Source: Candidatus Doudnabacteria bacterium (lineage in GTDB: Bacteria > Patescibacteriota > Doudnabacteria > UBA920). From it: a DNA stretch of 64,000 nucleotides. The first letter of the stretch is position 1. Every line of letters starts with the position of its first letter. Below are positions 732 through 53,905 of the stretch, piece by piece. Location of the stretch: NCBI GenBank assembly GCA_963837465.1, contig CAWINB010000004.1, positions 793,078 to 857,077 on the forward strand. Reading direction: 5' to 3'. The position numbers and the translations under genes are program-made. A model generated the notes under the pieces. The model was not told where the DNA came from, ran no database searches, and saw nothing but the letters and a program-made list of their open reading frames with translations.

Positions 732-737
732 TCTCTG

Positions 738-758
738 CCGATAAATCGGCGCGCTACT
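738..758. promoter_or_regulatory. P4 motif GCCGATAAATCGGCGCGCTAC directly before the rmlA-like start codon
   Basis: Same 21-mer recurs at 24407 and, split by a 19-nt insert, at 51114; contains hairpin gccga-taaa-tcggc. Confidence 0.5.
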
Positions 759-22969: not shown

Positions 22970-23390
22970 ATTTATTTCAGGACCCATTTTTAAGATTATG
23001 GATTGTGAAACGAGTTCGGGATCGTATAAAAAACAGGCGTCACCCCAAACGTCAGTGTAAGAATCCCGGTAATTAGATTCTTTACTGCGTTTAGAACGAC
23101 GCCATAAGCTAGGGGACAAACTTGATAAAAAGTTGCGTGTATTCGGGGTAAGACGTGCCGGGTGCGTGCACCCGAACCGTGGTTTTTACGCCCCTCGTAA
23201 ACTCCACGAAAGCGCCAGCAGGGAGGTCTTCGGCACACGGATTATGCCCACCGAAGTTCCATGTTTTACCGAAATAGCTATTATTGTTGTATTTTTGGCA
23301 AAACAGTTTATCCCCAGCTTTAATGACCAGATTTTGCATCTACTCCTCCATTTCGCCGATTGCGAATAACAAAATCTACCATATATATAT

Positions 23391-24406: not shown

Positions 24407-24427
24407 GCCGATAAATCGGCGCGCTAC
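24407..24427. promoter_or_regulatory. P4 motif GCCGATAAATCGGCGCGCTAC upstream of ctpA
   Basis: Identical 21-mer to 738..758. Confidence 0.5.
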
Positions 24428-37673: not shown

Positions 37674-37680
37674 ATGCTCC

Positions 37681-38085
37681 GGGCAAACTCATAAGCCGAA
37701 TTCTGTTTCTCTCCGCCTTCGCGTAAAGCTATGCGGATCAGCGCCGTAAAATAAATTACAGTTGCTGAATAATCATCTATCTAGCCCCGCCATTGCTGGC
37801 GGGATCGAGCAGCCTACCTAATTTGGCCTTGCACTCAAGTAAGGATTTAGCCGTTTCACCCTTCGGCTTCGCTCAGAGCCTCGCGGCCCCGGGTTTATAT
37901 GAAGGTTGATCCAAATTTTGGATCCCCGCGCCTTTCGGCGGCAGGCGTCACTGTTCGCACCTCGCGGATTACTCCGGACGGGGATTACCCGCTACCAATT
38001 TTGATAACTCTTAAGAGGTTATCAAACAAGTGTTCGGACTTTCCTACCCTTAAAATAAATTAAGGATCGATTATTCGGTTTGCCC
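37681..38085 (-). ncRNA. rnpB: RNase P RNA (bacterial type A)
   Basis: Reverse complement contains GGAAAGTCCGAACAC, GGTAGGCTGCTCGA, CTAGATAGATGA and ACAGAATTCGGCTTAT; P1 pairing GGGCAAAC/GTTTGCCC; no ORFs on either strand. Confidence 0.85.
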
Positions 38086-38111
38086 AAAGCCCATAAATAT
38101 TAGCAAAAAAG

Positions 38112-39684: not shown

Positions 39685-40854
39685 ATGATGACAAATTTCC
39701 AATTTCCAGTTTCCAATTTCAAAATCGCTTTGGCCCACGATTCGTTTACCCAGGACGGGGGAGCGGAAAGAGTGATGGAGGGTTTGCATGAGCTGTTTCC
39801 CCAAGCCCCTGTTTTTACTTTGGTGTTTGACCCAAAATTCAGGGAAAAATACAAAGATTGGGACATCCGCACTTCCAAATTGCAGACTTTATACCTGTCT
39901 TTGGGCAAGCTCCAGTACCTTTTGCCGCTTATTCCGTACGGAGTGGATTCCCTGGATTTTTCCGGTTTTGACGTTATAATTTCTTCCAGCTCCGGGTTCA
40001 TTAAAAATTTACGCCGTCCGAAAAACGCCTTGCATATAAATTACTGCCATACCCCGGCCCGGTTTTTGTGGAGCGATGCCAATTACGTAAACGAAGAAGT
40101 CAATCCGGTCTTTAGACCCGCGGCAAAATTTATACTAAACCGGATAAAGCTTTGGGATTTAAAGGGGGCAAAGCGGGTGGATTATTTTATCGCTAATTCA
40201 CACGAAGTCCAAAACAGGATTTCGCGATATTATCAGCGTACTAGTACGCTGATACATCCGTTTGTCGATATGGATTTTTGGAAAAACGTTCAAACCAGGC
40301 AAAATTATTTTTTGCTCGCCGGCAGGCTTCAGGCGCATAAAAATAATGAACTGATTATCCAGATTTTTAATGAACTTGACCTGCCGCTGCGTGTGGCGGG
40401 TACGGGGCGGCAGGAAAATTATTTAAAATCCATCGCCAAACCGAATATTAAGTTCTTAGGGCGCGTCAGCGACGAACAACTGCGGCAGGAATACAGCGGA
40501 GCTCTCGGCTTTATTTACCCCCAACTGGAAGATTTCGGCCTAATGCCCCTGGAAGCCGCCGCCTGCGGCACGGCCACCCTGGCTTACGGCAAAGGCGGAG
40601 CTTTGGAAACGGTGACTTCTGGGGTTACAGGAGAGTTTTTTGGTCCCGACGCAGTTAGCCCATTTATGGGCTGTGGAACTGAACAAACAGCCGATAAATT
40701 GGCTAACTACAAGGACCAAATCAAACAGCTCATCCTAAACTGGCAACCGCAAAAATATAAACCCGACCAACTGCAATCCCAGGCCGAAAAATTCAGCAAG
40801 GAAAAATTTAAGGAAAATATTTTAGAATTTATTAATTCATTAAAAATGAAATGA
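39685..40854 (+). CDS. GT4 glycosyltransferase (carries several dispersed repeat motifs in frame)
   Basis: GT-B fold; EDFGLMPLEAAACG motif; heptamer run at its 5' end, the 22-bp palindrome at 40232 and the P4-variant at 40688. Confidence 0.8.
   Translation: MMTNFQFPVSNFKIALAHDSFTQDGGAERVMEGLHELFPQAPVFTLVFDPKFREKYKDWDIRTSKLQTLYLSLGKLQYLLPLIPYGVDSLDFSGFDVIISSSSGFIKNLRRPKNALHINYCHTPARFLWSDANYVNEEVNPVFRPAAKFILNRIKLWDLKGAKRVDYFIANSHEVQNRISRYYQRTSTLIHPFVDMDFWKNVQTRQNYFLLAGRLQAHKNNELIIQIFNELDLPLRVAGTGRQENYLKSIAKPNIKFLGRVSDEQLRQEYSGALGFIYPQLEDFGLMPLEAAACGTATLAYGKGGALETVTSGVTGEFFGPDAVSPFMGCGTEQTADKLANYKDQIKQLILNWQPQKYKPDQLQSQAEKFSKEKFKENILEFINSLKMK
40232..40253. repeat. 22-bp perfect palindrome ATCAGCGTACTAGTACGCTGAT inside the GT4 CDS (P5 family)
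   Basis: Direct reading; encodes YQRTSTLIH; core shared with 49711..49728 and 49604..49629. Confidence 0.8.
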
Positions 40855-48803: not shown

Positions 48804-49133
48804 ATGAATATCACAATAAAAGCCACCAACACAACTTTAACCCCGGCCATTAAAAGTTTTATAGAAGATAAGCTGGATTCGCTTGCCAAATTCATTAAGC
48901 CGGAAGACAAAGTCAGGGTGCAGATAGAAGCCGACAAAAGGCGCGCCGGCGAATTCGCTTTCCGCGCCGAAATAGACATCCAGCCCCACGGCCATTTTGC
49001 GGATGCCCGCGGTATTGATATTTACGCGGCGTTTGATCTGGTCGTCCCTAAGATTAAGGAGCAGCTGACCAGAAAAAAGGATAAAAAATTAAGCCTGCGC
49101 AGGGCCAAGCTTTCCGTAAAAAATTTAAAATAA
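48804..49133 (+). CDS. hpf: Ribosome hibernation promoting factor (short HPF/RaiA)
   Basis: [24 protein letters not shown]... Confidence 0.8.
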
Positions 49134-49138
49134 AAAAT

Positions 49139-49166
49139 CCCCCGGCCAAACCGGGGTATTTTTTTG
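49139..49166 (+). terminator. Rho-independent terminator
   Basis: atcccccggccaaaccggggtattttttt. Confidence 0.7.
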
Positions 49167-49211
49167 CCATCTCAGAGATGCCAATATCAATCGAGCTGTG
49201 TTTTTGGTGTG

Positions 49212-49265
49212 TCATCCCGGAATTTTTCGCGACAAGCCTATTGAAAGGAAAAATGTCCGGGATCC
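49212..49265. repeat. P2 hairpin element copy (CATCCCGGAATTTTT...AAAATGTCCGGGATCC)
   Basis: Matches 54535..54581 and the arms of 9362..9489. Confidence 0.55.
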
Positions 49266-49308
49266 AGAATCAAGCATGACCTTGATAAATCAGGACGGAA
49301 ACAACCCA

Positions 49309-49584
49309 TTACTTCTCCAGCATCTGCCTGAAACCGCCCTTTTTATTCATCAGTTCCCGCGAGCCGCGTGTTACAGTAGCCACGCTAACCTTAAGATTTT
49401 TGGCGATGTCCCTTTGGGGAACCTTTTGTTCCAGCTGTTTTACAATCTGCCAGCGCACAGCCAGGTCTTTATACTCGGCGGGGGACAGTAAATCGTACAA
49501 AAGCTCGTGCAACAAGGCTTTGCTTTTAGCCGCCTTAAACAACAAATTTTCCATCTCTACCCCGAATTTATAATCGTATTTCAT
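49309..49584 (-). CDS. TrpR-like YerC/YecD-family DNA-binding protein
   Basis: LLSPAEYKDLAVRWQIVKQL...RDIAKNLKVSVATVTRGSREL. Confidence 0.6.
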   Translation of the reverse strand: MKYDYKFGVEMENLLFKAAKSKALLHELLYDLLSPAEYKDLAVRWQIVKQLEQKVPQRDIAKNLKVSVATVTRGSRELMNKKGGFRQMLEK

Positions 49585-49603
49585 GGTATTTTCCTGTTCG
49601 TAA

Positions 49604-49629
49604 ATGTTACTGTACTAGTACAGTAACAT
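49604..49629. promoter_or_regulatory. 26-bp perfect palindrome ATGTTACTGTACTAGTACAGTAACAT, 20 nt upstream of the TrpR-like gene (candidate operator)
   Basis: Direct reading. Confidence 0.5.
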
Positions 49630-49710
49630 GGCCGCCGGAGACGGTCAACAGGCTTTTTATATGTGGATAACTTTGGCTTAGGTTCGATATTTTTTCAAAT
49701 TCGCGTGTTC

Positions 49711-49728
49711 TAGCGTACTAGTACGCTA
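49711..49728. promoter_or_regulatory. 18-bp perfect palindrome TAGCGTACTAGTACGCTA (same GTACTAGTAC core)
   Basis: Direct reading; immediately followed by TTGACG...TAGTAT promoter-like boxes. Confidence 0.45.
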
Positions 49729-50225
49729 TTGACGGCGGATTTTCCTTGATGTAGTATTAGCTTATGATTTTTCAAAAATCCCGACAATCTCAACTATCCT
49801 GGCGGCAGGTTTTGTAACCGCAAAGCCTGGGTTTTGATACACCTTCAAACACCTCCCGGCCTTTTGCGGAAGGTGTTTTTTATTTGTTCTGATGATTGTT
49901 CAGTATAAAAAAGTGTGGCCGCATTTTTTATCCATACGATCACCAGCACAAATCCAAACCAGGATAACAAGGGTGCTGTCTTGCCTGGAAATAAAAGAGG
50001 ATGGAATGCAGTTTTATTTTAGGTGTCGTTTTAGCCACAGGTCTGTCTCGAGAGGGGCATTGGCCAAAATTCTGCACTCTTCCCTGAAGAGTGTCACTTT
50101 GGAGATATTCCAAAGTGGCACGAGTAGCGAAAGAGCTACTCAAATTCAACGTTATGAAATGGAGGAGTTTCTTTATTGTTATTATCGCGCCAATGAGCGC
50201 GATCGGGATGTTAAGAATATACCTT

Positions 50226-50270
50226 CCGCCGTCCTGCGTAATTAGCAGGCTCCGGCGGTTCCATTTTTTT
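50226..50270 (+). terminator. Hairpin plus T-run terminator inside the gene-poor region
   Basis: ccgccgtcctgcgtaattagcaggctccggcgg ttccattttttt. Confidence 0.5.
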
Positions 50271-50561
50271 ATTTTAACGTTTGGATTTTAAAACTTGACA
50301 GTATTAATAGGTTTGCTAAGCTCTATTTAGATGAATAAATTGACTCAAAATTTCTGGTTTTATTTTTACTTTACCCTGGGCGTTGAGGCCAGAAATTTTG
50401 AGTTGATTAGTCCACAGATGAGCAGATAGCGCAAATTGCACAAATGCAAACATCAACTCCAAACTTCCGACCTCAACAGGGGTCGATTTTTTATTGGCCC
50501 GATAAAGATCGGATAGTAATAAAATTCAAAAATCCCGCTTTGCGGGTGGAGGATGGAATAA

Positions 50562-50762
50562 ATGGAAAGAAAAGAAATTATTGCGGCTACCAAAGACGCC
50601 GTTCCCGGGTCTCCGCAAGCAAAGACGTACGAGCTTGCGAGGGAAAACACGTCGGGGTTTGACGTTTGCGGCGCCTGCCACACATCTTTTCCGGAAAACT
50701 CCGGTGAAAGCTGTTGCGGCGTAATTACGGTAACCATTTTTTCTTTGGCATCAAATTGGTAG
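50562..50762 (+). CDS. Small Cys-containing ORF (66 aa) with a GGAGG Shine-Dalgarno
   Basis: GGAGG 9 nt upstream of the ATG; CGACH...CCG; no homology recognised. Confidence 0.3.
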   Translation: MERKEIIAATKDAVPGSPQAKTYELARENTSGFDVCGACHTSFPENSGESCCGVITVTIFSLASNW

Positions 50763-50858
50763 GTAGCCCTTATAGGGCAAGGAAAAAATTCTCGCAAGAG
50801 AGTATTTTCCTGGCCCCAAGAGGGGCGGATCAAAAAAGACAAAAGAAAGGAGGTGGGT

Positions 50859-50912
50859 ATGGGCAATCTGTCCCGAGTTCAATTAACCCGAGCTGAAAGC
50901 GGGTCGCGATAA
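50859..50912 (+). CDS. 17-aa ORF (MGNLSRVQLTRAESGSR) behind a perfect 10-nt anti-16S SD (AAAGGAGGTG), followed by a terminator
   Basis: Direct reading; this strength of SD is otherwise absent from the window. Confidence 0.25.
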   Translation: MGNLSRVQLTRAESGSR

Positions 50913-50923
50913 TTCTTTCAGCA

Positions 50924-50958
50924 CGGCCGGTCCTATTTTTTGGACCGGCATTTTTTTA
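50924..50958 (+). terminator. Rho-independent terminator
   Basis: ggccggtcctattttttggaccggcattttttt. Confidence 0.6.
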
Positions 50959-51113
50959 TACAATAGTTCTGAGTTTTGGCATTTTAACAGCCGATAAATC
51001 GGCTAACTACATCGGGCTAATCCACTTTACAAACCCTTCTTTCGGACAGCTTTTATTTATGAGTGGATTCTGTTATAATATCAACATGTAATTTTAATTA
51101 GATTATCCAGATT

Positions 51114-51153
51114 GCCGATAAATACCGTAGGACGACACAAGTCGGCGCGCTAC
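51114..51153. promoter_or_regulatory. P4 motif split by a 19-nt insert (GCCGATAAAT[accgtaggacgacacaagt]CGGCGCGCTAC) in the secA leader
   Basis: Alignment to 738..758 and 24407..24427; preceded by TGTTATAAT extended -10 at 51071-51079. Confidence 0.5.
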
Positions 51154-51156
51154 ACT

Positions 51157-53905
51157 ATGTCATTTTTATCCAAAATTTTCAGCGGACAAAACAATTCCCT
51201 CGCCAAATTTTCCGGGGAGCTGGACGCGGTTAATGGTTTTAAGGAAGATGTGGAAAAACTTTCCCAGGAAGAGATTAAAGCGGAAATTTCAAATTTCAAA
51301 TTGGAAATTTCAAAGCTCGAATCGGACAGGGAAATTTTCGAGCAGCTGCAAAAAATCGCGTCGCGGGTTTTTGCCTTGACCAGGGAAGCGGCCAAAAGAA
51401 GCATCGGGCAGGAGCACTACGATGTGCAGCTGGCCGGAGGTTTTGTTTTGGCCGAAGGCAAGATCGCGGAAATGAAGACCGGCGAGGGGAAAACCTTAAC
51501 CGCTACTTTGCCTTTGGCTCTGTACGCTTTAGCCAGCAAAGGCGCGCACCTGGTTACGGTTAACGATTACCTGGCCCGCTGGCAGGCCAGCTTAATGGGT
51601 CCGGTTTACCGCTACCTTGGTTTGAGCGTGGCTTCCATCCAGCACGAAGCCAGTTTTTTATATGATCCTGACTACAAACCCGAGCAGGAAGAAATAGATA
51701 AGCTGGAAGGTGAAACCCAGGGGCTGATTATGGACGTTAAGCATATGCGCCCCATTTCCAGGCGGGAAGCTTACGCCGCGGAGATAACTTACGGCACCAA
51801 CAACGAATACGGTTTTGATTACCTGCGCGACAATATGGCCCAGCACCAAAACCAAATTACCCAGCGCGGACTTTTGTTTGCCATTGTGGACGAGGTAGAC
51901 AGCATATTGATAGATGAAGCGCGCACGCCGCTCATTATCAGCGCTCCGGACACCGAGCCGACCAGCAAGTATTACGACTTCGCGCGTTTGGTGGACGGCC
52001 TGGATGAAGCTACGGATTACACCGTGGATGAAAAACACAAAGCCGCCAGCTTAACCGACTCCGGCATCAACAAAATAGAAGCGTTGCTGAAAATCCCGAA
52101 TATTTATGATACCAGCAAAGGCGTTACAACCATCCACCATATTGAACAGGCTTTGCGCTCAAGAACTTTGTTTAAAAAGGACCGCGACTATGTGGTGCGC
52201 GAGGGTGAAATAATCATCGTCGATGAATTTACCGGCAGGCTGATGTTCGGCAGGCGCTACAGCGAAGGTTTGCACCAGGCCATAGAAGCCAAGGAAAATG
52301 TTAAAATTCAGCAGGAAAGCAAAACACTGGCTACAATAACTTTCCAAAACCTTTTTCGGCTTTATAAAAGACTTTCCGGCATGACGGGCACGGCCAAAAC
52401 CGAAGAAGAAGAATTTTTTAAAATTTATCAGCTGACCGTGCGGCAAATCCCGACCCACCGCCCCATGGTGCGCGAGGATTTGTCGGACTTGGTTTATAAA
52501 ACCGAAGACGCCAAATTCAGCGCCATAGCGCGCGAGGTCAAACAGCGGAACCAAAAGGGCCAGCCTGTGCTTATTGGCACCGTCAGCATCGCCAAAAACG
52601 AAATGCTGGCCGAGGTTTTAAAAAAAGAAGGGCTGAAGTTTGAAATTTTAAACGCCAAAAACCACGAACGCGAAGCGCACATTATTTCCCAGGCCGGACG
52701 CTTTGGGCAAATTACTCTGGCCACCAACATTGCCGGACGCGGCGTGGATATTTTACTTGGCGGCAATCCTGTTGATGATGAAGAAGCCGAAAAAGTCAAG
52801 CAGGCCGGCGGTTTGCATATTTTGGGCACGGAAAGGCACGAGTCGCGCCGCATAGACAACCAGTTGCGCGGCCGCGCCGGCCGCCAGGGCGACCCGGGAA
52901 GTTCGCAATTTTTTGTTTCCATGGAAGACGACCTGATGCGTTTGTTCGGCGGCGAGCGCATGAAAAATTTAATGACCAGGCTGGGCTTGCCGGACGAGCA
53001 GCCGATTGAGGCGGGGATGGTTTCCAAATCCATCGAAAGCGCGCAAAAAAGAATAGAAGGCCTGAACTTTGACACCAGAAAACACGTATTGGAATTTGAT
53101 GATGTGCTCAACCATCAAAGAAACGTAATTTACAAAAGGCGGCGGGGTTATCTGGCGGGGAACAATACCAAAGATGAAGATGGCAATGACATCAGCCTTT
53201 CCAATGAAATTTTAGAGATGATTCGCCAGGAAATCGGCGGCATTGTAAGCTACAACCTCAACCTGCTGGATGAATACGGCGGCAAAAAAGAGGACTGGGA
53301 CAATTTATTTAAAAATGCCAACATAATTATTCCGGTAACTCCGGAGCTGGTAAAACAGATTAAGGAAGAAACCGTTAACGCCGCTGATCGTGAATTCGCC
53401 GTCAGCGATGCCTTGTACAACGCGGCTAAAAAATTATGGGACCAAAAAGAACAGGAAATGGGCAAAGATGTGTTTGAAGGCGCGCAAAGGTTTATTGCCC
53501 TGCAGTCACTGGACCAGTTATGGATGGAGCATTTGGATACATATGGACCATTTGCGCGACTCGGTAAGGCTGCGCGGTTACGGCCAGCGGGACCCGCTGG
53601 TGGAGTATAAAAAAGAAGGTCACGGTATGTTCCAGCTGCTGCTTAAGGAGATTAGCAAACAAATTGTTTCCAGTATTTTTCACATCACAGCGCAAAGAGC
53701 TCCGCTTCCTTCGGTAATACCGGCCAATTTGGTAACAAATTTATCCGATGGCTCCTCGGGCCAAAATTCGTCGCCTGCCGAAAATATCGGCCGCAACGAG
53801 CCGTGCCCCTGCGGCTCCGGAAAAAAGTGGAAGAAATGCGGAATGTTAAACACGCCGGAGCATTTAGCAAAGATAAAAACAAAATCCCTAATCCCTAATC
53901 CCTAA
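51157..53905 (+). CDS. secA: Preprotein translocase ATPase SecA, +1 frameshift near 53542 (probably a sequencing indel), SEC-C zinc motif at the C-terminus
   Basis: DEAD motor domains; ORF 51112..53610 ends ...WMEHLDTY, then frame 2 continues MDHLRDSVRLRGYGQRDPLVEYKKEG...CPCGSGKKWKKCG. Confidence 0.85.

What the first reader, a model, noticed from the sequence alone, without database searches (positions are those of the whole stretch)
49585..51156. 1.5-kb gene-poor, hairpin-dense region upstream of secA, with small ORFs carrying perfect Shine-Dalgarno sequences
No credible long ORF on either strand. Contents, left to right: 
- The two GTACTAGTAC palindromes. 
- A TTGACG-17-TAGTAT promoter-like site (49733-49761). 
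- Three consecutive stem-loops at 50076-50150 (cactcttc/gaagagtg, cactttgg/ccaaagtg, and gagtagc-gaaaga-gctactc with a GNRA-like loop). 
- Terminators at 50226-50270, 50468-50492 and 50924-50958. 
- A 15-bp inverted repeat, actcaaaatttctgg/ccagaaattttgagt (50344-50404). 
- A 66-aa Cys-containing ORF (50562..50762) with GGAGG-9nt-ATG. 
- A 17-aa ORF (50859..50912) behind AAAGGAGGTG, a perfect 10-nt anti-16S match, ending in a terminator ~200 nt upstream of the secA promoter (TGTTATAAT at 51071). 

Almost no other gene in the window has any SD, so these two stand out. Candidate explanations are structured sRNAs, a leader peptide or attenuator controlling secA (compare SecM/VemP-type arrest peptides), or a decayed mobile insert. 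The region also contains the P4-variant shared with the GT4 gene.
Basis: partly seen in the sequence, partly recalled or inferred. Interest (0 to 1): 0.6.

Follow-up and report, generated by a model that had tools for sequence, protein, structure and literature searches.

The report
Two leader-peptide attenuators upstream of secA
The "empty" 1.5 kb before secA in this Candidatus Doudnabacteria (candidate phyla radiation, CPR) genome is a row of small regulatory units, including a textbook tryptophan attenuator under a TrpR-type operator and a previously undescribed, conserved Phe-Trp-Phe-Tyr-Phe leader-peptide attenuator that appears to control a small cysteine-rich protein rather than secA.

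Summary
The region has no credible long gene. It is hairpin-dense: 13 terminator-like sites against 4.5±2.1 in shuffles. Its two GGAGG-led small ORFs stand out in a genome where 43 of 52 long ORFs have no Shine-Dalgarno (SD) core.

Nothing supports control of secA, and the flagged 17-aa and 66-aa ORFs are not the leaders. Comparison with related Doudnabacteria and metagenome contigs shows this layout:

- **TrpR operators:** E. coli-like GTACTAGTAC palindromes at trpR and abutting a rightward promoter.
- **Trp attenuator:** a near-leaderless 17-codon Trp leader (SW(W/R)QVL) with 1:2, 2:3 and 3:4 hairpins and a terminator.
- **5'-UTR motif:** a conserved pseudoknot-like motif ahead of an orphan 79-aa ORF.
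- **Aromatic attenuator:** a second promoter and a 32-codon leader with invariant QNFWFYFT.
- **Downstream:** an SD-led Cys-rich ORF, then a 17-aa ORF with its terminator, then secA's own promoter.

The aromatic leader's RNA forms two mutually exclusive conserved helices. The antiterminator has 10 compensatory pairs, and 0 of 500 shuffles reach that. The unit has 10 members, four of them far from secA.

Best reading: ribosome-mediated attenuation that senses aromatic aminoacyl-tRNA. This is a new variant of a known mechanism, in an unusual organism and with unusual cargo. There are no expression data, so function is inferred.

The parts
49309..49584 (-). TrpR-type repressor gene (91 aa), divergent from the region
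   Evidence: Pfam Trp_repressor E = 5.8e-20. NCBIfam TIGR01321 TrpR scores 58 bits (cut-off 67) against 22 bits for YerC/YecD. The best PDB sequence hits are E. coli Trp repressor at 5e-5, with the recognition helix AT(V)TRGS conserved.
49606..49627 (.). Operator O1: the 22-bp perfect palindrome GTTACTGTACTAGTACAGTAAC, next to the trpR start
   Evidence: Read from the sequence and found by the GTACTAGTAC scan. The same palindrome sits beside trpR in L001, L002, L012, L122 and L160. The E. coli operator in PDB 1tro is TGTACTAGTTAACTAGTACA (PMC2504314).
49712..49757 (+). Operator O2 (AGCGTACTAGTACGCT, 49712-49727), abutting the promoter TTGACG (49729-34) -17- TAGTAT (49752-57)
   Evidence: The operator-plus-TTGACA arrangement is conserved in 8 relatives.
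49764..49885 (+). Trp leader-peptide attenuator. The ATG lies 6 nt after the -10 box. The leader ORF is 49764..49817 (…S-W-R-Q-V-L*). The 1:2 hairpin is 49806-49829 and the terminator is 49847-49878 plus a U-run.
   Evidence: Relatives encode SWWQVL, SWWKVLP, SWWEVLP and AWWTLP. Constrained folds give 1:2 plus terminator when the RNA is free, the 2:3 antiterminator (CGCAAAGCC with GGCTTTGC) when the W codons are masked, and the terminator when the ribosome is at the stop codon. This held in 4 of 5 sequences. The terminator fold is. nhmmer finds the unit in L001, L002, L012 and L160.
49943..50005 (+). Conserved pseudoknot-like 5'-UTR motif. The tail CCAGCAC (49943-49) is complementary to the loop GTGCTG (49973-78) of the hairpin CCAGG…CCTGG (49959-88). 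An A-rich linker and an SD (AAGAGGA) follow.
   Evidence: Eight instances occur in 6 genomes, each ahead of a different SD-led small ORF. The tail:loop duplex is 4-7 bp in type A; for six instances it is scored at -8 to -13 kcal/mol. Type B shows a compensatory CCAGCGC/GCGCTTGG change. There is no Rfam hit.
50006..50275 (+). SD-led orphan 79-aa ORF (50006..50245). It contains three perfect hairpins (50074-50141) and ends in the terminator 50226-50258 plus U-run.
   Evidence: There is no homologue in relatives or in Pfam/NCBIfam. A gene caller called it as a gene on L081.
50295..50322 (+). Promoter of the aromatic leader: TTGACA (50295-300) -16- TAAGCT (50317-22), 8 nt before the ATG
   Evidence: Sequence. 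TTGACA-16-TAnnnT lying 7-15 nt before the ATG is conserved in 7 of 10 members.
50331..50429 (+). Aromatic leader-peptide ORF (32 codons): MNKLTQNFWFYFYFTLGVEARNFELISPQMSR
   Evidence: In 10 of 10 members the ATG and Q-N-F-W-F-Y-F-T are invariant. All indels inside the ORF are multiples of 3. The stop codon always falls after region 2 and before region 3.
50338..50408 (+). Helix 1:2 (anti-antiterminator or pause hairpin). Its core is 50343-57 / 50389-403.
   Evidence: 91% of cells are paired across 10 sequences, against at most 60% in slid controls. G-C to G-U changes are tolerated only on the + strand.
50380..50479 (+). Helix 2:3 (antiterminator): 50380-50407 pairs with 50452-50479 and overlaps the terminator's 5' arm
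   Evidence: 84% of cells are paired and 10 pairs show compensatory changes. No shuffle out of 500 reaches this, and slid controls give at most 48%. The helix forms in 10 of 10 members when region 1 is masked and the RNA is cut before the terminator's 3' arm.
50467..50492 (+). Intrinsic terminator (helix 3:4) of the aromatic leader
   Evidence: A hairpin plus U-run is present in all 10 members, with different stem sequences.
50534..50762 (+). Small hairpin (50534-46), SD GGAGG (50548-52) and the 66-aa Cys-containing ORF (50562..50762). This is the presumed regulated gene.
   Evidence: Every member has a purine-rich SD-like motif (GGAGG or a close variant) followed by a start codon; nine have a complete ORF of 64-78 aa carrying Cys motifs, mostly CxxC pairs, and the tenth (L122) is cut by the contig end before any Cys. 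Window against L006 gives BLASTP E = 6e-5; L136 against L185 gives 7e-10.
50763..50958 (+). Unconserved unit: nested hairpins 50766-50826, a perfect SD AAAGGAGGTG (50846-55), the 17-aa ORF 50859..50912, and the terminator 50926-49 plus U-run
   Evidence: z = -4.0. There is no similarity in relatives. L081 differs at codons 2-3.
50986..51079 (+). Recurrent palindrome GCCGATAAATCGGC (50990-51003, within the 26-nt repeat) and secA's own extended -10 TGTTATAAT (51071-79). secA's ATG is at 51157.
   Evidence: The same palindrome-plus-TGTTATAAT arrangement occurs at 24407.

Best explanation
The gap is a compact regulatory island for tryptophan and aromatic amino-acid supply. It is not a decayed gene and not a secA leader.

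A TrpR-type repressor is encoded on the minus strand at 49309-49584. It presumably binds two E. coli-like GTACTAGTAC palindromes, one at its own start and one abutting the -35 of a rightward promoter. That promoter makes a leaderless or near-leaderless RNA. The RNA's first 17 codons contain the Trp codon(s), followed by three alternative hairpins and a terminator. This is a classic trp attenuator.

About 450 nt further on, a second promoter makes another near-leaderless RNA. Its 32-codon ORF carries five to seven consecutive aromatic codons (F-W-F-Y-F, plus Y-F in this genome).

Inferred mechanism of the second unit:
- **Aromatic tRNAs charged:** the ribosome runs through region 2 to the stop codon. 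The 3:4 terminator forms and transcription ends at about 50492.
- **No translation:** helix 1:2 forms and the terminator again wins.
- **Phe-, Trp- or Tyr-tRNA scarce:** the ribosome stalls on the aromatic codons and covers region 1. Region 2 pairs with region 3 and sequesters the terminator's 5' arm. RNA polymerase then reads through into the SD-led 66-aa Cys-rich ORF.

What is shown: the ORF, the promoters, both competing helices with covariation, the terminators, and their conservation in ten genomes. What is inferred: translation of the leader, stalling, read-through, and everything about what the small protein does.
For: **Family and synteny.** The block 50293-50500 is more conserved at the DNA level (74-79% identity) than the flanking secA coding DNA (65-68%). 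It is found in the Doudnabacteria relatives L001, L002 and L006. Six metagenome contigs carry it as well.

**Coding signature.** The ATG sits at a fixed distance and Q-N-F-W-F-Y-F-T is invariant. Indels are +6 and +3 nt only. The stop codon always lies between regions 2 and 3. Codon 4 stays Leu/Ile through the different codons TTG, TTA, CTA, ATC and ATT.

**Switch.**
- Helix 1:2 is 91% paired.
- Helix 2:3 is 84% paired with 10 compensatory pairs. No shuffle out of 500 reaches this, and slid controls give at most 48%.
- The two helices share region 2, so they exclude each other.
- Terminator stems covary.
- Constrained folds: free RNA gives 1:2 plus terminator in 5 of the 10 members, including the window (the other five already show the 2:3 helix or lack 1:2), a ribosome at the stop gives the terminator only, and region 1 masked gives the 2:3 helix.
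- The 2:3 helix captures 4-13 nt of the terminator's 5' arm in 10 of 10 members before the 3' arm is made.

**Strand.** The promoter, the U-runs and the G-U wobble substitutions all point to the + strand.

**Cargo.** All ten members have a purine-rich SD-like motif (GGAGG or a close variant) and a start codon after the terminator; nine have a complete small Cys-motif ORF, and the tenth is cut by a contig end. This is in a genome that otherwise lacks SDs.

**Independent support from the neighbouring unit.**
- The Trp leader (SWW) behaves the same way in constrained folds.
- It sits behind TrpR-type operators.
- In L001 it precedes a SerK-like plus TrpB-like operon; TrpB-like scores 708 bits on NF009057.

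**Precedent.** The C. glutamicum AroR leader contains Phe-Tyr-Phe and attenuates aroF (PMC11802643).
Against: - There are no transcript or ribosome-profiling data. Everything functional is inferred.
- The downstream genes have no recognisable link to aromatic amino acids. By general knowledge, CPR bacteria usually lack amino-acid biosynthesis.
- The peptide and its nucleotides are more invariant than a simple codon run requires. TAT is used 10 times out of 10 although genomic usage is 48%. Overlapping pairing constraints explain part of this but not the UUUUAC stretch.
- At equilibrium with region 1 masked, the window, L130, L132, L136 and L006 still keep the terminator. Antitermination would therefore have to be kinetic.
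- In five members (L001, L002, L130, L160, L185) the truncated RNA folds into the 2:3 helix even without a mask; in the full-length free folds this holds for four of them (not L130).
- L160, L185 and L006 lack the canonical promoter immediately upstream, so leaderless initiation is not universal.
- In the window the Trp leader has W-R rather than W-W, and no trp gene follows it.
Confidence: 0.68

Rival explanations
1. The QNFWFYFT peptide is a sequence-specific nascent-chain arrest peptide of the TnaC, SpeFL, Erm-leader or SecM kind. It would stall the ribosome in response to a small molecule or to the state of the secretion or insertion machinery, not to tRNA charging. The same RNA switch would convert the stall into read-through.
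For: Eight consecutive residues are invariant in 10 genomes whose MurB proteins are only 59-66% identical. There is no synonymous variation in TGG TTT TAT TTT. Six of ten members lie next to secA. The downstream genes are unrelated to amino-acid metabolism.
Against: The window carries an extra in-frame Y-F (FWFYFYFT). That changes spacing in a way a tunnel-specific motif would tolerate poorly but a codon run would welcome. T-Q-N-F-W and part of F-Y are also constrained by helices 1:2 and 2:3. There is no signal peptide or transmembrane segment. Four members are not near secA or any Sec gene. A neighbouring unit is an undoubted amino-acid attenuator.
Confidence: 0.13
2. The conserved block is a translation-independent RNA. 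It could be a riboswitch-like or protein-binding leader, or a small RNA with its own promoter and terminator. The short ORF would then be a by-product of sequence conservation.
For: Conservation is strong at the nucleotide level, including at synonymous sites. Two alternative helices with covariation are what riboswitch expression platforms look like. The unit has its own promoter and terminator, giving an RNA of about 165 nt. No SD precedes the ATG.
Against: The ATG is invariant while its neighbours vary. The frame is preserved through +3 and +6 indels, whereas the spacer after the stop varies freely in length. Stop codons are confined to the region 2 to region 3 spacer. The aromatic run is placed exactly where a stalled ribosome would cover region 1. 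The genome generally does not use SDs. There is no Rfam match, even at E ≤ 10. No conserved ligand-pocket-like unpaired core is evident beyond UUUUAC.
Confidence: 0.1
3. The region is a decaying or hypervariable island of small orphan genes left by mobile DNA or lost operons. Its hairpins would be leftovers with no current regulatory role. The 32-aa peptide could be a type I toxin-like small protein.
For: The small ORFs differ between close relatives, and most have no homologue anywhere. L001 has a SerK-like/TrpB-like operon at the equivalent place, which is absent here. The window's Trp leader has lost one Trp codon. The module occurs in two different genomic contexts.
Against: The regulatory parts (operators, promoters, both leaders, terminators and the pseudoknot 5' UTR) are the conserved parts and show compensatory changes. 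That indicates purifying selection on RNA structure. The peptide's hydrophobic stretch is only about 11 residues, too short for a membrane toxin. No antisense promoter or antitoxin RNA is evident.
Confidence: 0.07

Closest known systems
E. coli trp operon control region (TrpR operator plus trpL attenuator)
   Same: It has a TrpR-family repressor with a conserved AT(I/V)TRGS recognition helix and CTAG-centred GTACTAG operators. Its short leader carries tandem Trp codons and has the stop between regions 1 and 2. It has 1:2, 2:3 and 3:4 alternative hairpins and an intrinsic terminator. Control is dual: repression plus attenuation.
   Different: The operator here abuts the -35 box rather than overlapping the -10. 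The leader mRNA appears leaderless and has no SD. There is no Rfam Trp_leader match. In the window no trp gene follows. In relative L001 the cargo is a SerK-like plus TrpB-like salvage pair, not trpEDCBA. The window's leader has W-R, not W-W.
Mixed or Phe aromatic leaders: C. glutamicum aroR (Phe-Tyr-Phe) before aroF; E. coli pheL and pheM
   Same: These are short leader peptides with a run of aromatic codons. Ribosome stalling at the run relieves a downstream terminator (PMC11802643). By my own recollection, pheM reads [14 protein letters not shown], a very similar FYF-type run.
   Different: The leader here includes Trp as well (F-W-F-Y-F). The whole octapeptide QNFWFYFT is invariant. The cargo is a 64-91-aa Cys-rich protein of unknown function rather than a biosynthetic enzyme or tRNA synthetase. 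The host is a CPR bacterium. There is no Rfam Phe_leader match.
B. subtilis anti-TRAP (rtpA) operon (own knowledge, not tested here)
   Same: A small zinc-binding CxxC protein whose synthesis is switched on when an aromatic tRNA (tRNA-Trp) is uncharged, partly through a leader peptide with Trp codons. The protein then antagonises the Trp regulator.
   Different: There is no sequence similarity between the Cys-rich ORFs here and any solved structure. Anti-TRAP uses a T-box plus translational coupling, not a trp-type terminator switch. The regulator here is TrpR-like, not TRAP. A regulatory role for the Cys-rich ORF is pure conjecture.
SecM, VemP and MifM monitoring substrates
   Same: A short ORF upstream of a secretion gene on the same strand, with RNA structure that a stalled ribosome could remodel.
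   Different: Terminators and an independent secA promoter lie in between. The peptide has no signal or transmembrane segment. Four of ten family members are nowhere near secA. The switch acts on a terminator about 665 nt before the secA start, not on secA's ribosome-binding site.
Chlamydia trachomatis trpRBA (PMC7755916, abstract seen)
   Same: A reduced-genome, host-dependent bacterium that keeps a TrpR repressor and additional attenuation-type control over a tryptophan-salvage (trpB) locus.
   Different: Gene order and mechanism differ: Chlamydia uses YtgR and control within the intergenic region. Here the salvage genes are present only in relative L001, and the enzyme there is a TrpB-like (TIGR01415/NF009057) paralogue paired with a SerK-like kinase.

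Membership tests
Ribosome-mediated transcription attenuator (trp/phe/his type) | Short ORF starting at or just after the transcription start, upstream of the regulated gene | tested here: met
   ATG 50331 lies 8 nt after the -10 box and ATG 49764 lies 6 nt after its -10 box. Both are conserved in relatives.
Ribosome-mediated transcription attenuator (trp/phe/his type) | Run of codons for the sensed amino acid(s) in the leader | tested here: met
   F-W-F-Y-F(-Y-F) is invariant in 10 of 10 members. W-W is present in 4 of 5 Trp leaders; the window has W-R.
Ribosome-mediated transcription attenuator (trp/phe/his type) | Intrinsic terminator between the leader and the regulated gene | tested here: met
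   Terminators at 50468-85 and 49847-78, each with a U-run. Present in all family members.
Ribosome-mediated transcription attenuator (trp/phe/his type) | Antiterminator helix that excludes the terminator and is itself excluded by an upstream helix overlapping the regulatory codons | tested here: met
   Helices 1:2 and 2:3 share region 2, and helices 2:3 and 3:4 share region 3. Covariation is shown.
Ribosome-mediated transcription attenuator (trp/phe/his type) | Regulated genes belong to synthesis, uptake or charging of the sensed amino acid | tested here: not met
   In the window the cargo is orphan ORFs of 66 and 79 aa with no family match. The feature is met only for the Trp leader of relative L001, which precedes TrpB-like.
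Ribosome-mediated transcription attenuator (trp/phe/his type) | Read-through rises when the cognate charged tRNA is limiting | not testable with these tools
   Needs expression or in vitro assays.
Rfam leader families (Trp_leader, Phe_leader and others) | Covariance-model match | tested here: not met
   No leader family appears even at E ≤ 10 in 49100-51400. The only gathering-level hit in the window is RNase P.
TrpR repressor/operator system | Trp_repressor-fold protein with a conserved DNA-reading helix | tested here: met
   Pfam E = 5.8e-20. E. coli TrpR structures match at 5e-5, with ATITRGS aligned to ATVTRGS. The TIGR01321 score of 58 bits is below its 67-bit cut-off, so this is a divergent member.
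TrpR repressor/operator system | CTAG-centred palindromic operators at regulated promoters | tested here: met
   GTACTAGTAC occurs at trpR and at the leader promoter in 8 genomes. Compare TGTACTAGTTAACTAGTACA in 1tro.
TrpR repressor/operator system | Tryptophan-dependent operator binding | not testable with these tools
   Needs EMSA or footprinting with and without L-Trp.
SecM/VemP/MifM-type arrest peptide controlling a Sec/YidC gene | Co-transcribed with the sec gene, whose ribosome-binding site is unmasked by the stalled ribosome | tested here: not met
   Two terminators and a separate secA promoter intervene. The family also occurs without secA.
SecM/VemP/MifM-type arrest peptide controlling a Sec/YidC gene | N-terminal signal or transmembrane segment that lets secretion force release the arrest | tested here: not met
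   The peptides are 25-34 aa, and the only hydrophobic stretch is about 11 residues, FWFYF(YF)TLGV.
Zinc-ribbon small proteins / anti-TRAP-like | Two CxxC (or CxxC/CxxH) knuckles in a recognisable zinc-ribbon fold | tested here: inconclusive
   CxxC pairs are present in most of the nine complete members, but the window has CGAC…CC only. Pfam gives only sub-threshold zinc-finger hits. The AF2 model from a 2-sequence alignment is helical and unreliable, and Foldseek finds no match. There is no PDB sequence match.

The most novel reading that the evidence does not exclude
The FWFYF leader and its Cys-rich ORF could form an anti-TRAP-like starvation circuit in an amino-acid-auxotrophic CPR symbiont. 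Shortage of any charged aromatic tRNA would switch on a small zinc-binding protein. That protein would antagonise the neighbouring TrpR-type repressor or another regulator or ribosome factor; hpf lies next door. Together with the Trp attenuator and the pseudoknot-led orphan ORFs, it would make a dedicated 'host is not feeding me aromatic amino acids' regulon. A variant of this reading is that QNFWFYFT is a true ligand- or state-sensing arrest peptide.
Probability: 0.12. Interest if true: 0.8.

Novelty: new variant of a known kind. Interest (0 to 1): 0.6.

Why it matters
CPR/Patescibacteria are thought to be host-dependent and largely unable to make amino acids, and their gene regulation is almost unstudied. 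I found no paper in the searchable library linking leader peptides, attenuation or TrpR to this group.

The locus shows that a Doudnabacterium keeps the full classical toolkit: a TrpR operator, a Trp leader and a terminator switch. It apparently runs this on leaderless mRNAs in a genome that hardly uses Shine-Dalgarno sequences.

A second, conserved aromatic leader has been attached to small Cys-rich proteins of unknown function instead of biosynthetic genes. This offers a concrete handle on how such symbionts sense nutrient supply from the host. It also defines three RNA elements absent from Rfam and marks a set of small proteins as probable starvation-response factors.

For annotation, it is a caution that 'gene-poor, hairpin-dense' gaps in CPR genomes can be dense regulatory arrays.

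Tried and rejected
- **Known RNA families.** Rfam at gathering thresholds on the whole window found only RNase P. At E ≤ 10 on 49100-51400 it gave only chance-level hits to terminators. ARAGORN found no tRNA or tmRNA.
- **Gap ORFs.** Pfam and NCBIfam on every ORF in the gap gave nothing beyond sub-threshold zinc-finger hits for the 66-aa ORF.
- **Protein-database searches.** Profiles of the two Cys-ORF subfamilies returned only the sequences already in hand, plus a low-coverage duplicate of L185 (L204, full of homopolymer errors).
- **Structure of the 66-aa ORF.** The AF2 model came from a 2-sequence alignment. It is inconsistent across models and helical, and Foldseek against PDB gave no hit with E < 2. 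I treated it as uninformative. PDB sequence searches of the Cys ORFs gave nothing significant.
- **False lead.** 'NFWFFF' upstream of secA in the Giovannonibacteria locus L015 is just the hpf start read in another frame.
- **Viral contigs.** The two pattern matches are chance matches without the element.
- **SecM-type control of secA.** Rejected; see the membership test.
- **Antisense ORF across the element (50316..50462, minus strand).** Rejected, because the promoter, the U-runs and the G-U substitutions fit only the + strand.
- **Homology of the 79-aa ORF to the SD-led ORFs of relatives.** None found.
- **Literature.** Searches for CPR attenuators, TrpR in Patescibacteria and TrpB2/O-phosphoserine returned nothing usable. 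A search for GTACTAGTAC found only primers.

Full report
**Context.** SecA relatives place the window in Candidatus Doudnabacteria (CPR/Patescibacteria). L001-L013 and L031 are 69-80% identical in SecA. The local gene order is murC, murB, hpf (48804-49133), a TrpR-type gene on the minus strand (49309-49584), the 1.5-kb gap, then secA from 51157.

**Checking the observation.** The promoter-like site is at 49729-49757, and a fourth terminator at 49847-49885 was missed.
- The region is hairpin-dense beyond chance: 13 terminator-like sites against 4.5 ± 2.1 in shuffles.
- No ORF in it matches a protein family.
- The two GGAGG-led ORFs are unusual, because 43 of 52 long ORFs in the window have no SD core.
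- An independent short-read assembly of the same species (L081) differs from the window only at 50864-65 within the finding's coordinates, plus two single-base indels upstream between hpf and trpR (49175, 49229). These features are therefore not assembly artefacts.
- Rfam and ARAGORN find nothing in the region.

**The conserved core.** BLASTN of the gap against the relatives showed that 50293-50500 is better conserved (74-79% identity) than the neighbouring secA coding DNA (65-68%). This holds in L001, L002 and L006, always upstream of secA on the same strand.

The block begins with TTGACA-16-TAAGCT. Eight nucleotides later comes an invariant ATG. It opens a 25-34-codon ORF whose residues Q-N-F-W-F-Y-F-T are identical in all copies.

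Six carried the whole element: L122, L130, L132, L136, L160 and L185. That makes ten members.

Evidence that the ORF is read:
- The ATG is fixed while its neighbours vary.
- Codon 4 stays Leu/Ile through different codons.
- The only indels inside the ORF are +6 nt (an extra Tyr-Phe in the window) and +3 nt, whereas the spacer after the stop varies freely.
- The stop always falls after region 2 and before region 3.

**The RNA switch.** Region 1 encodes T-Q-N-F-W.
- Across the ten sequences, 91% of cells pair, against at most 60% in slid controls. Several G-C pairs become G-U, which works only on the + strand.
- Region 2, extended into the hairpin loop (50380-50407), is also complementary to 50452-50479. 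That segment overlaps the 5' arm of the terminator (50468-85 plus U-run).
- This 2:3 helix is 84% paired and has 10 pairs with compensatory changes. No shuffle out of 500 reaches that, and slid controls give at most 48%.
- Terminator stems differ in sequence between members, but all are hairpins followed by U-runs.

Constrained folding reproduces the three states expected of an attenuator:
- Free RNA gives 1:2 plus terminator in five of the ten members, including the window; in the other five the 2:3 helix already forms or 1:2 does not.
- A ribosome at the stop gives the terminator alone.
- Region 1 masked, as by a ribosome on the aromatic codons, gives the long 2:3 helix.

At equilibrium the terminator survives in five members. 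However, if the RNA is cut just before the terminator's 3' arm is made, 2:3 has already captured 4-13 nt of the 5' arm in all ten. Antitermination would therefore be kinetic, as in classical systems.

**What lies downstream of the aromatic leader.** After the terminator, every member has a purine-rich SD-like motif (GGAGG or a close variant) and a start codon. In nine of them this opens a complete 64-78-aa ORF (read from the SD-proximal start) that carries Cys motifs, mostly CxxC pairs. The tenth, L122, is cut by the contig end after 39 residues, before any Cys.
- These ORFs are very divergent. Window against L006 gives E = 6e-5, and L136 against L185 gives 7e-10. Window against L001 gives nothing.
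- Profile searches of 5.8 billion proteins return only the sequences already in hand.
- Pfam, NCBIfam, PDB sequence search, and an AF2 model followed by Foldseek were all uninformative.

Six members share the hpf/trpR…secA neighbourhood. Four sit instead between a pilin-like gene plus a 483-aa unknown protein on one side and an AbrB/MazE-like–MacA–MacB operon on the other. The conserved module is therefore 'aromatic leader plus small Cys-rich ORF'. The link to secA is incidental.

In the window, transcripts that escape 50492 would end at the strong terminator 50926-58. secA has its own extended -10 at 51071.

**The left half of the gap.** The two GTACTAGTAC palindromes match the half-site of the E. 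coli trp operator, which is TGTACTAGTTAACTAGTACA in PDB 1tro (PMC2504314).
- The divergent gene is a TrpR. It scores 58 bits on TIGR01321 against 22 bits on YerC/YecD. E. coli TrpR structures are its best PDB matches, and the recognition helix AT(V)TRGS is conserved.
- One palindrome lies at the trpR start. The other abuts the -35 of TTGACG-17-TAGTAT. This arrangement is conserved in eight relatives.
- Six nucleotides after the -10 box an ATG opens MIFQKSRQSQLSWRQVL*.
- The relatives encode …SWWQVL…, …SWWKVLP*, …SWWEVLP* and …AWWTLP….

Folding gives a 1:2 hairpin (GGTTTTG… with …CGCAAAGCC), a 2:3 antiterminator (CGCAAAGCC with GGCTTTGC), and a terminator. The stop codon lies between regions 1 and 2, as in E. 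coli trpL. Masking the Trp codons switches the fold to 2:3 in four of five sequences.

In L001 this leader precedes a SerK/SbnI-like gene and a TrpB-like PLP enzyme that scores 708 bits on NF009057. Further operators flank them. By my own knowledge of TrpB2 enzymes, this pair amounts to indole plus phosphoserine salvage of tryptophan. The window lacks these genes, and its leader has W-R.

**Between the two attenuators.** A 60-nt 5'-UTR motif at 49943-50005 recurs eight times in six genomes, always ahead of a different SD-led small ORF.
- A two-part hairpin presents a 6-8-nt loop GUGCUG(G) that is complementary to the 5' tail CCAGCAC.
- A second subtype has CCAGCGC with GCGCUUGG, a compensatory change.
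- In L002, L012 and L005 the motif directly follows the Trp attenuator. These small ORFs therefore look like members of the same regulon.

In the window the motif precedes an orphan 79-aa ORF (50006-50245). That ORF contains the three perfect hairpins (z = -5.5) and ends in a terminator. Neither the ORF nor the hairpins are conserved, and I cannot explain them.

The same holds for the 50763-50958 unit: nested hairpins, a perfect SD, a 17-aa ORF and a terminator (z = -4.0). It has no counterpart in relatives.

**Comparison with known systems.** The Trp unit is a divergent member of the TrpR-plus-trpL design. The aromatic unit works like the aroR (Phe-Tyr-Phe) and pheL/pheM leaders (PMC11802643). 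It differs in four ways:
- It includes Trp.
- The octapeptide is invariant.
- Initiation appears leaderless.
- The cargo is of unknown function.

It fails one defining feature of the family, because the regulated gene is not in the pathway of the sensed amino acid. I therefore file it as a new variant rather than a plain member. No Rfam leader family matches. SecM-type regulation fails two defining features.

The resemblance to the B. subtilis anti-TRAP circuit is a lead from memory only. In that circuit a small zinc protein is induced by uncharged tRNA-Trp.

**Verdict.**
- The best explanation is ribosome-mediated attenuation sensing aromatic aminoacyl-tRNA, next to a classical TrpR/Trp attenuator (confidence about 0.68).
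- The main rivals are a sequence-specific arrest peptide (0.13) and a translation-independent RNA switch (0.10).
- All functional steps are inferred from sequence and comparative structure. No expression data were available.

Noticed in passing
window 53530-53545 (secA): secA carries a 1-nt insertion relative to its relatives: GATACA-T-ATGGACC, where they encode …EHLDTMDHLRDS…. This splits the gene into ORFs 51112..53610 and 53390..53905. It is most likely an assembly or indel error in an essential gene, but a real frameshift is not excluded.
   Followed up: partly
window 40235-40250 and 40686-40711 (inside GT4 glycosyltransferase ORF 39685..40854): The exact 16-mer TrpR-type operator AGCGTACTAGTACGCT and a 26-nt copy of 50986-51011 both lie inside the same GT4 gene. 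They are in the same order and orientation as in the gap. This could be chance, an intragenic operator, or a trace of recombination; I cannot tell which.
   Followed up: partly
window 737-750, 24407-24420, 50990-51003 (variant 40690-40703): The palindrome GCCGATAAATCGGC recurs in intergenic DNA. At 24407 and 50990 it lies 37-66 nt upstream of an identical extended -10, TGTTATAAT. At 737 it lies 8 nt before a start codon. L001 has further copies. It is probably a binding site for an unknown regulator.
   Followed up: partly
window, genome-wide: 43 of 52 ORFs of at least 150 aa have no 4-nt SD core near their start. The few perfect GGAGG-plus-ATG sites precede small ORFs: 50548, 50849, and a 76-aa ORF on the minus strand starting near 23333 in the 22970-23390 gap.
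   Followed up: no
L001 1687-3900: In this Doudnabacteria relative, a SerK/SbnI-like gene and a TrpB-like PLP enzyme (NF009057, 708 bits) sit behind the Trp leader. GTACTAGTAC operators flank them at 2040 and 3898. This looks like a TrpR- and attenuation-controlled tryptophan-salvage operon in a CPR genome.
   Followed up: partly
window 49943-50005; L001 3982; L002 4369, 4895; L005 5659; L012 5096, 5597; L160 (reverse strand) 1766: A recurrent pseudoknot-like 5'-UTR motif (tail CCAGCRC complementary to a hairpin loop, then an A-rich linker and an SD) lies ahead of non-homologous small ORFs. It has no Rfam match.
   Followed up: partly
window 49905-49927; L002 4860-4885: A conserved palindrome (AAAATGCGGCCGCATTTT in L002, AAAAGTGTGGCCGCATTTT here) lies in the spacer of a putative promoter just upstream of the 5'-UTR motif. 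It looks like an operator for a different regulator.
   Followed up: no
L185 / L204 3420-3620: In the L185 lineage, the conserved promoter of the aromatic leader (TTGACA…AGGTTTGCTATAAT) lies about 170 nt upstream of the leader ATG. A remnant ATGAACTCATAG sits directly behind it. This indicates an insertion between promoter and leader.
   Followed up: no
window 37676-38086 (-): Bacterial RNase P RNA class A scores just above its gathering threshold: 101.7 bits against 100.
   Followed up: no
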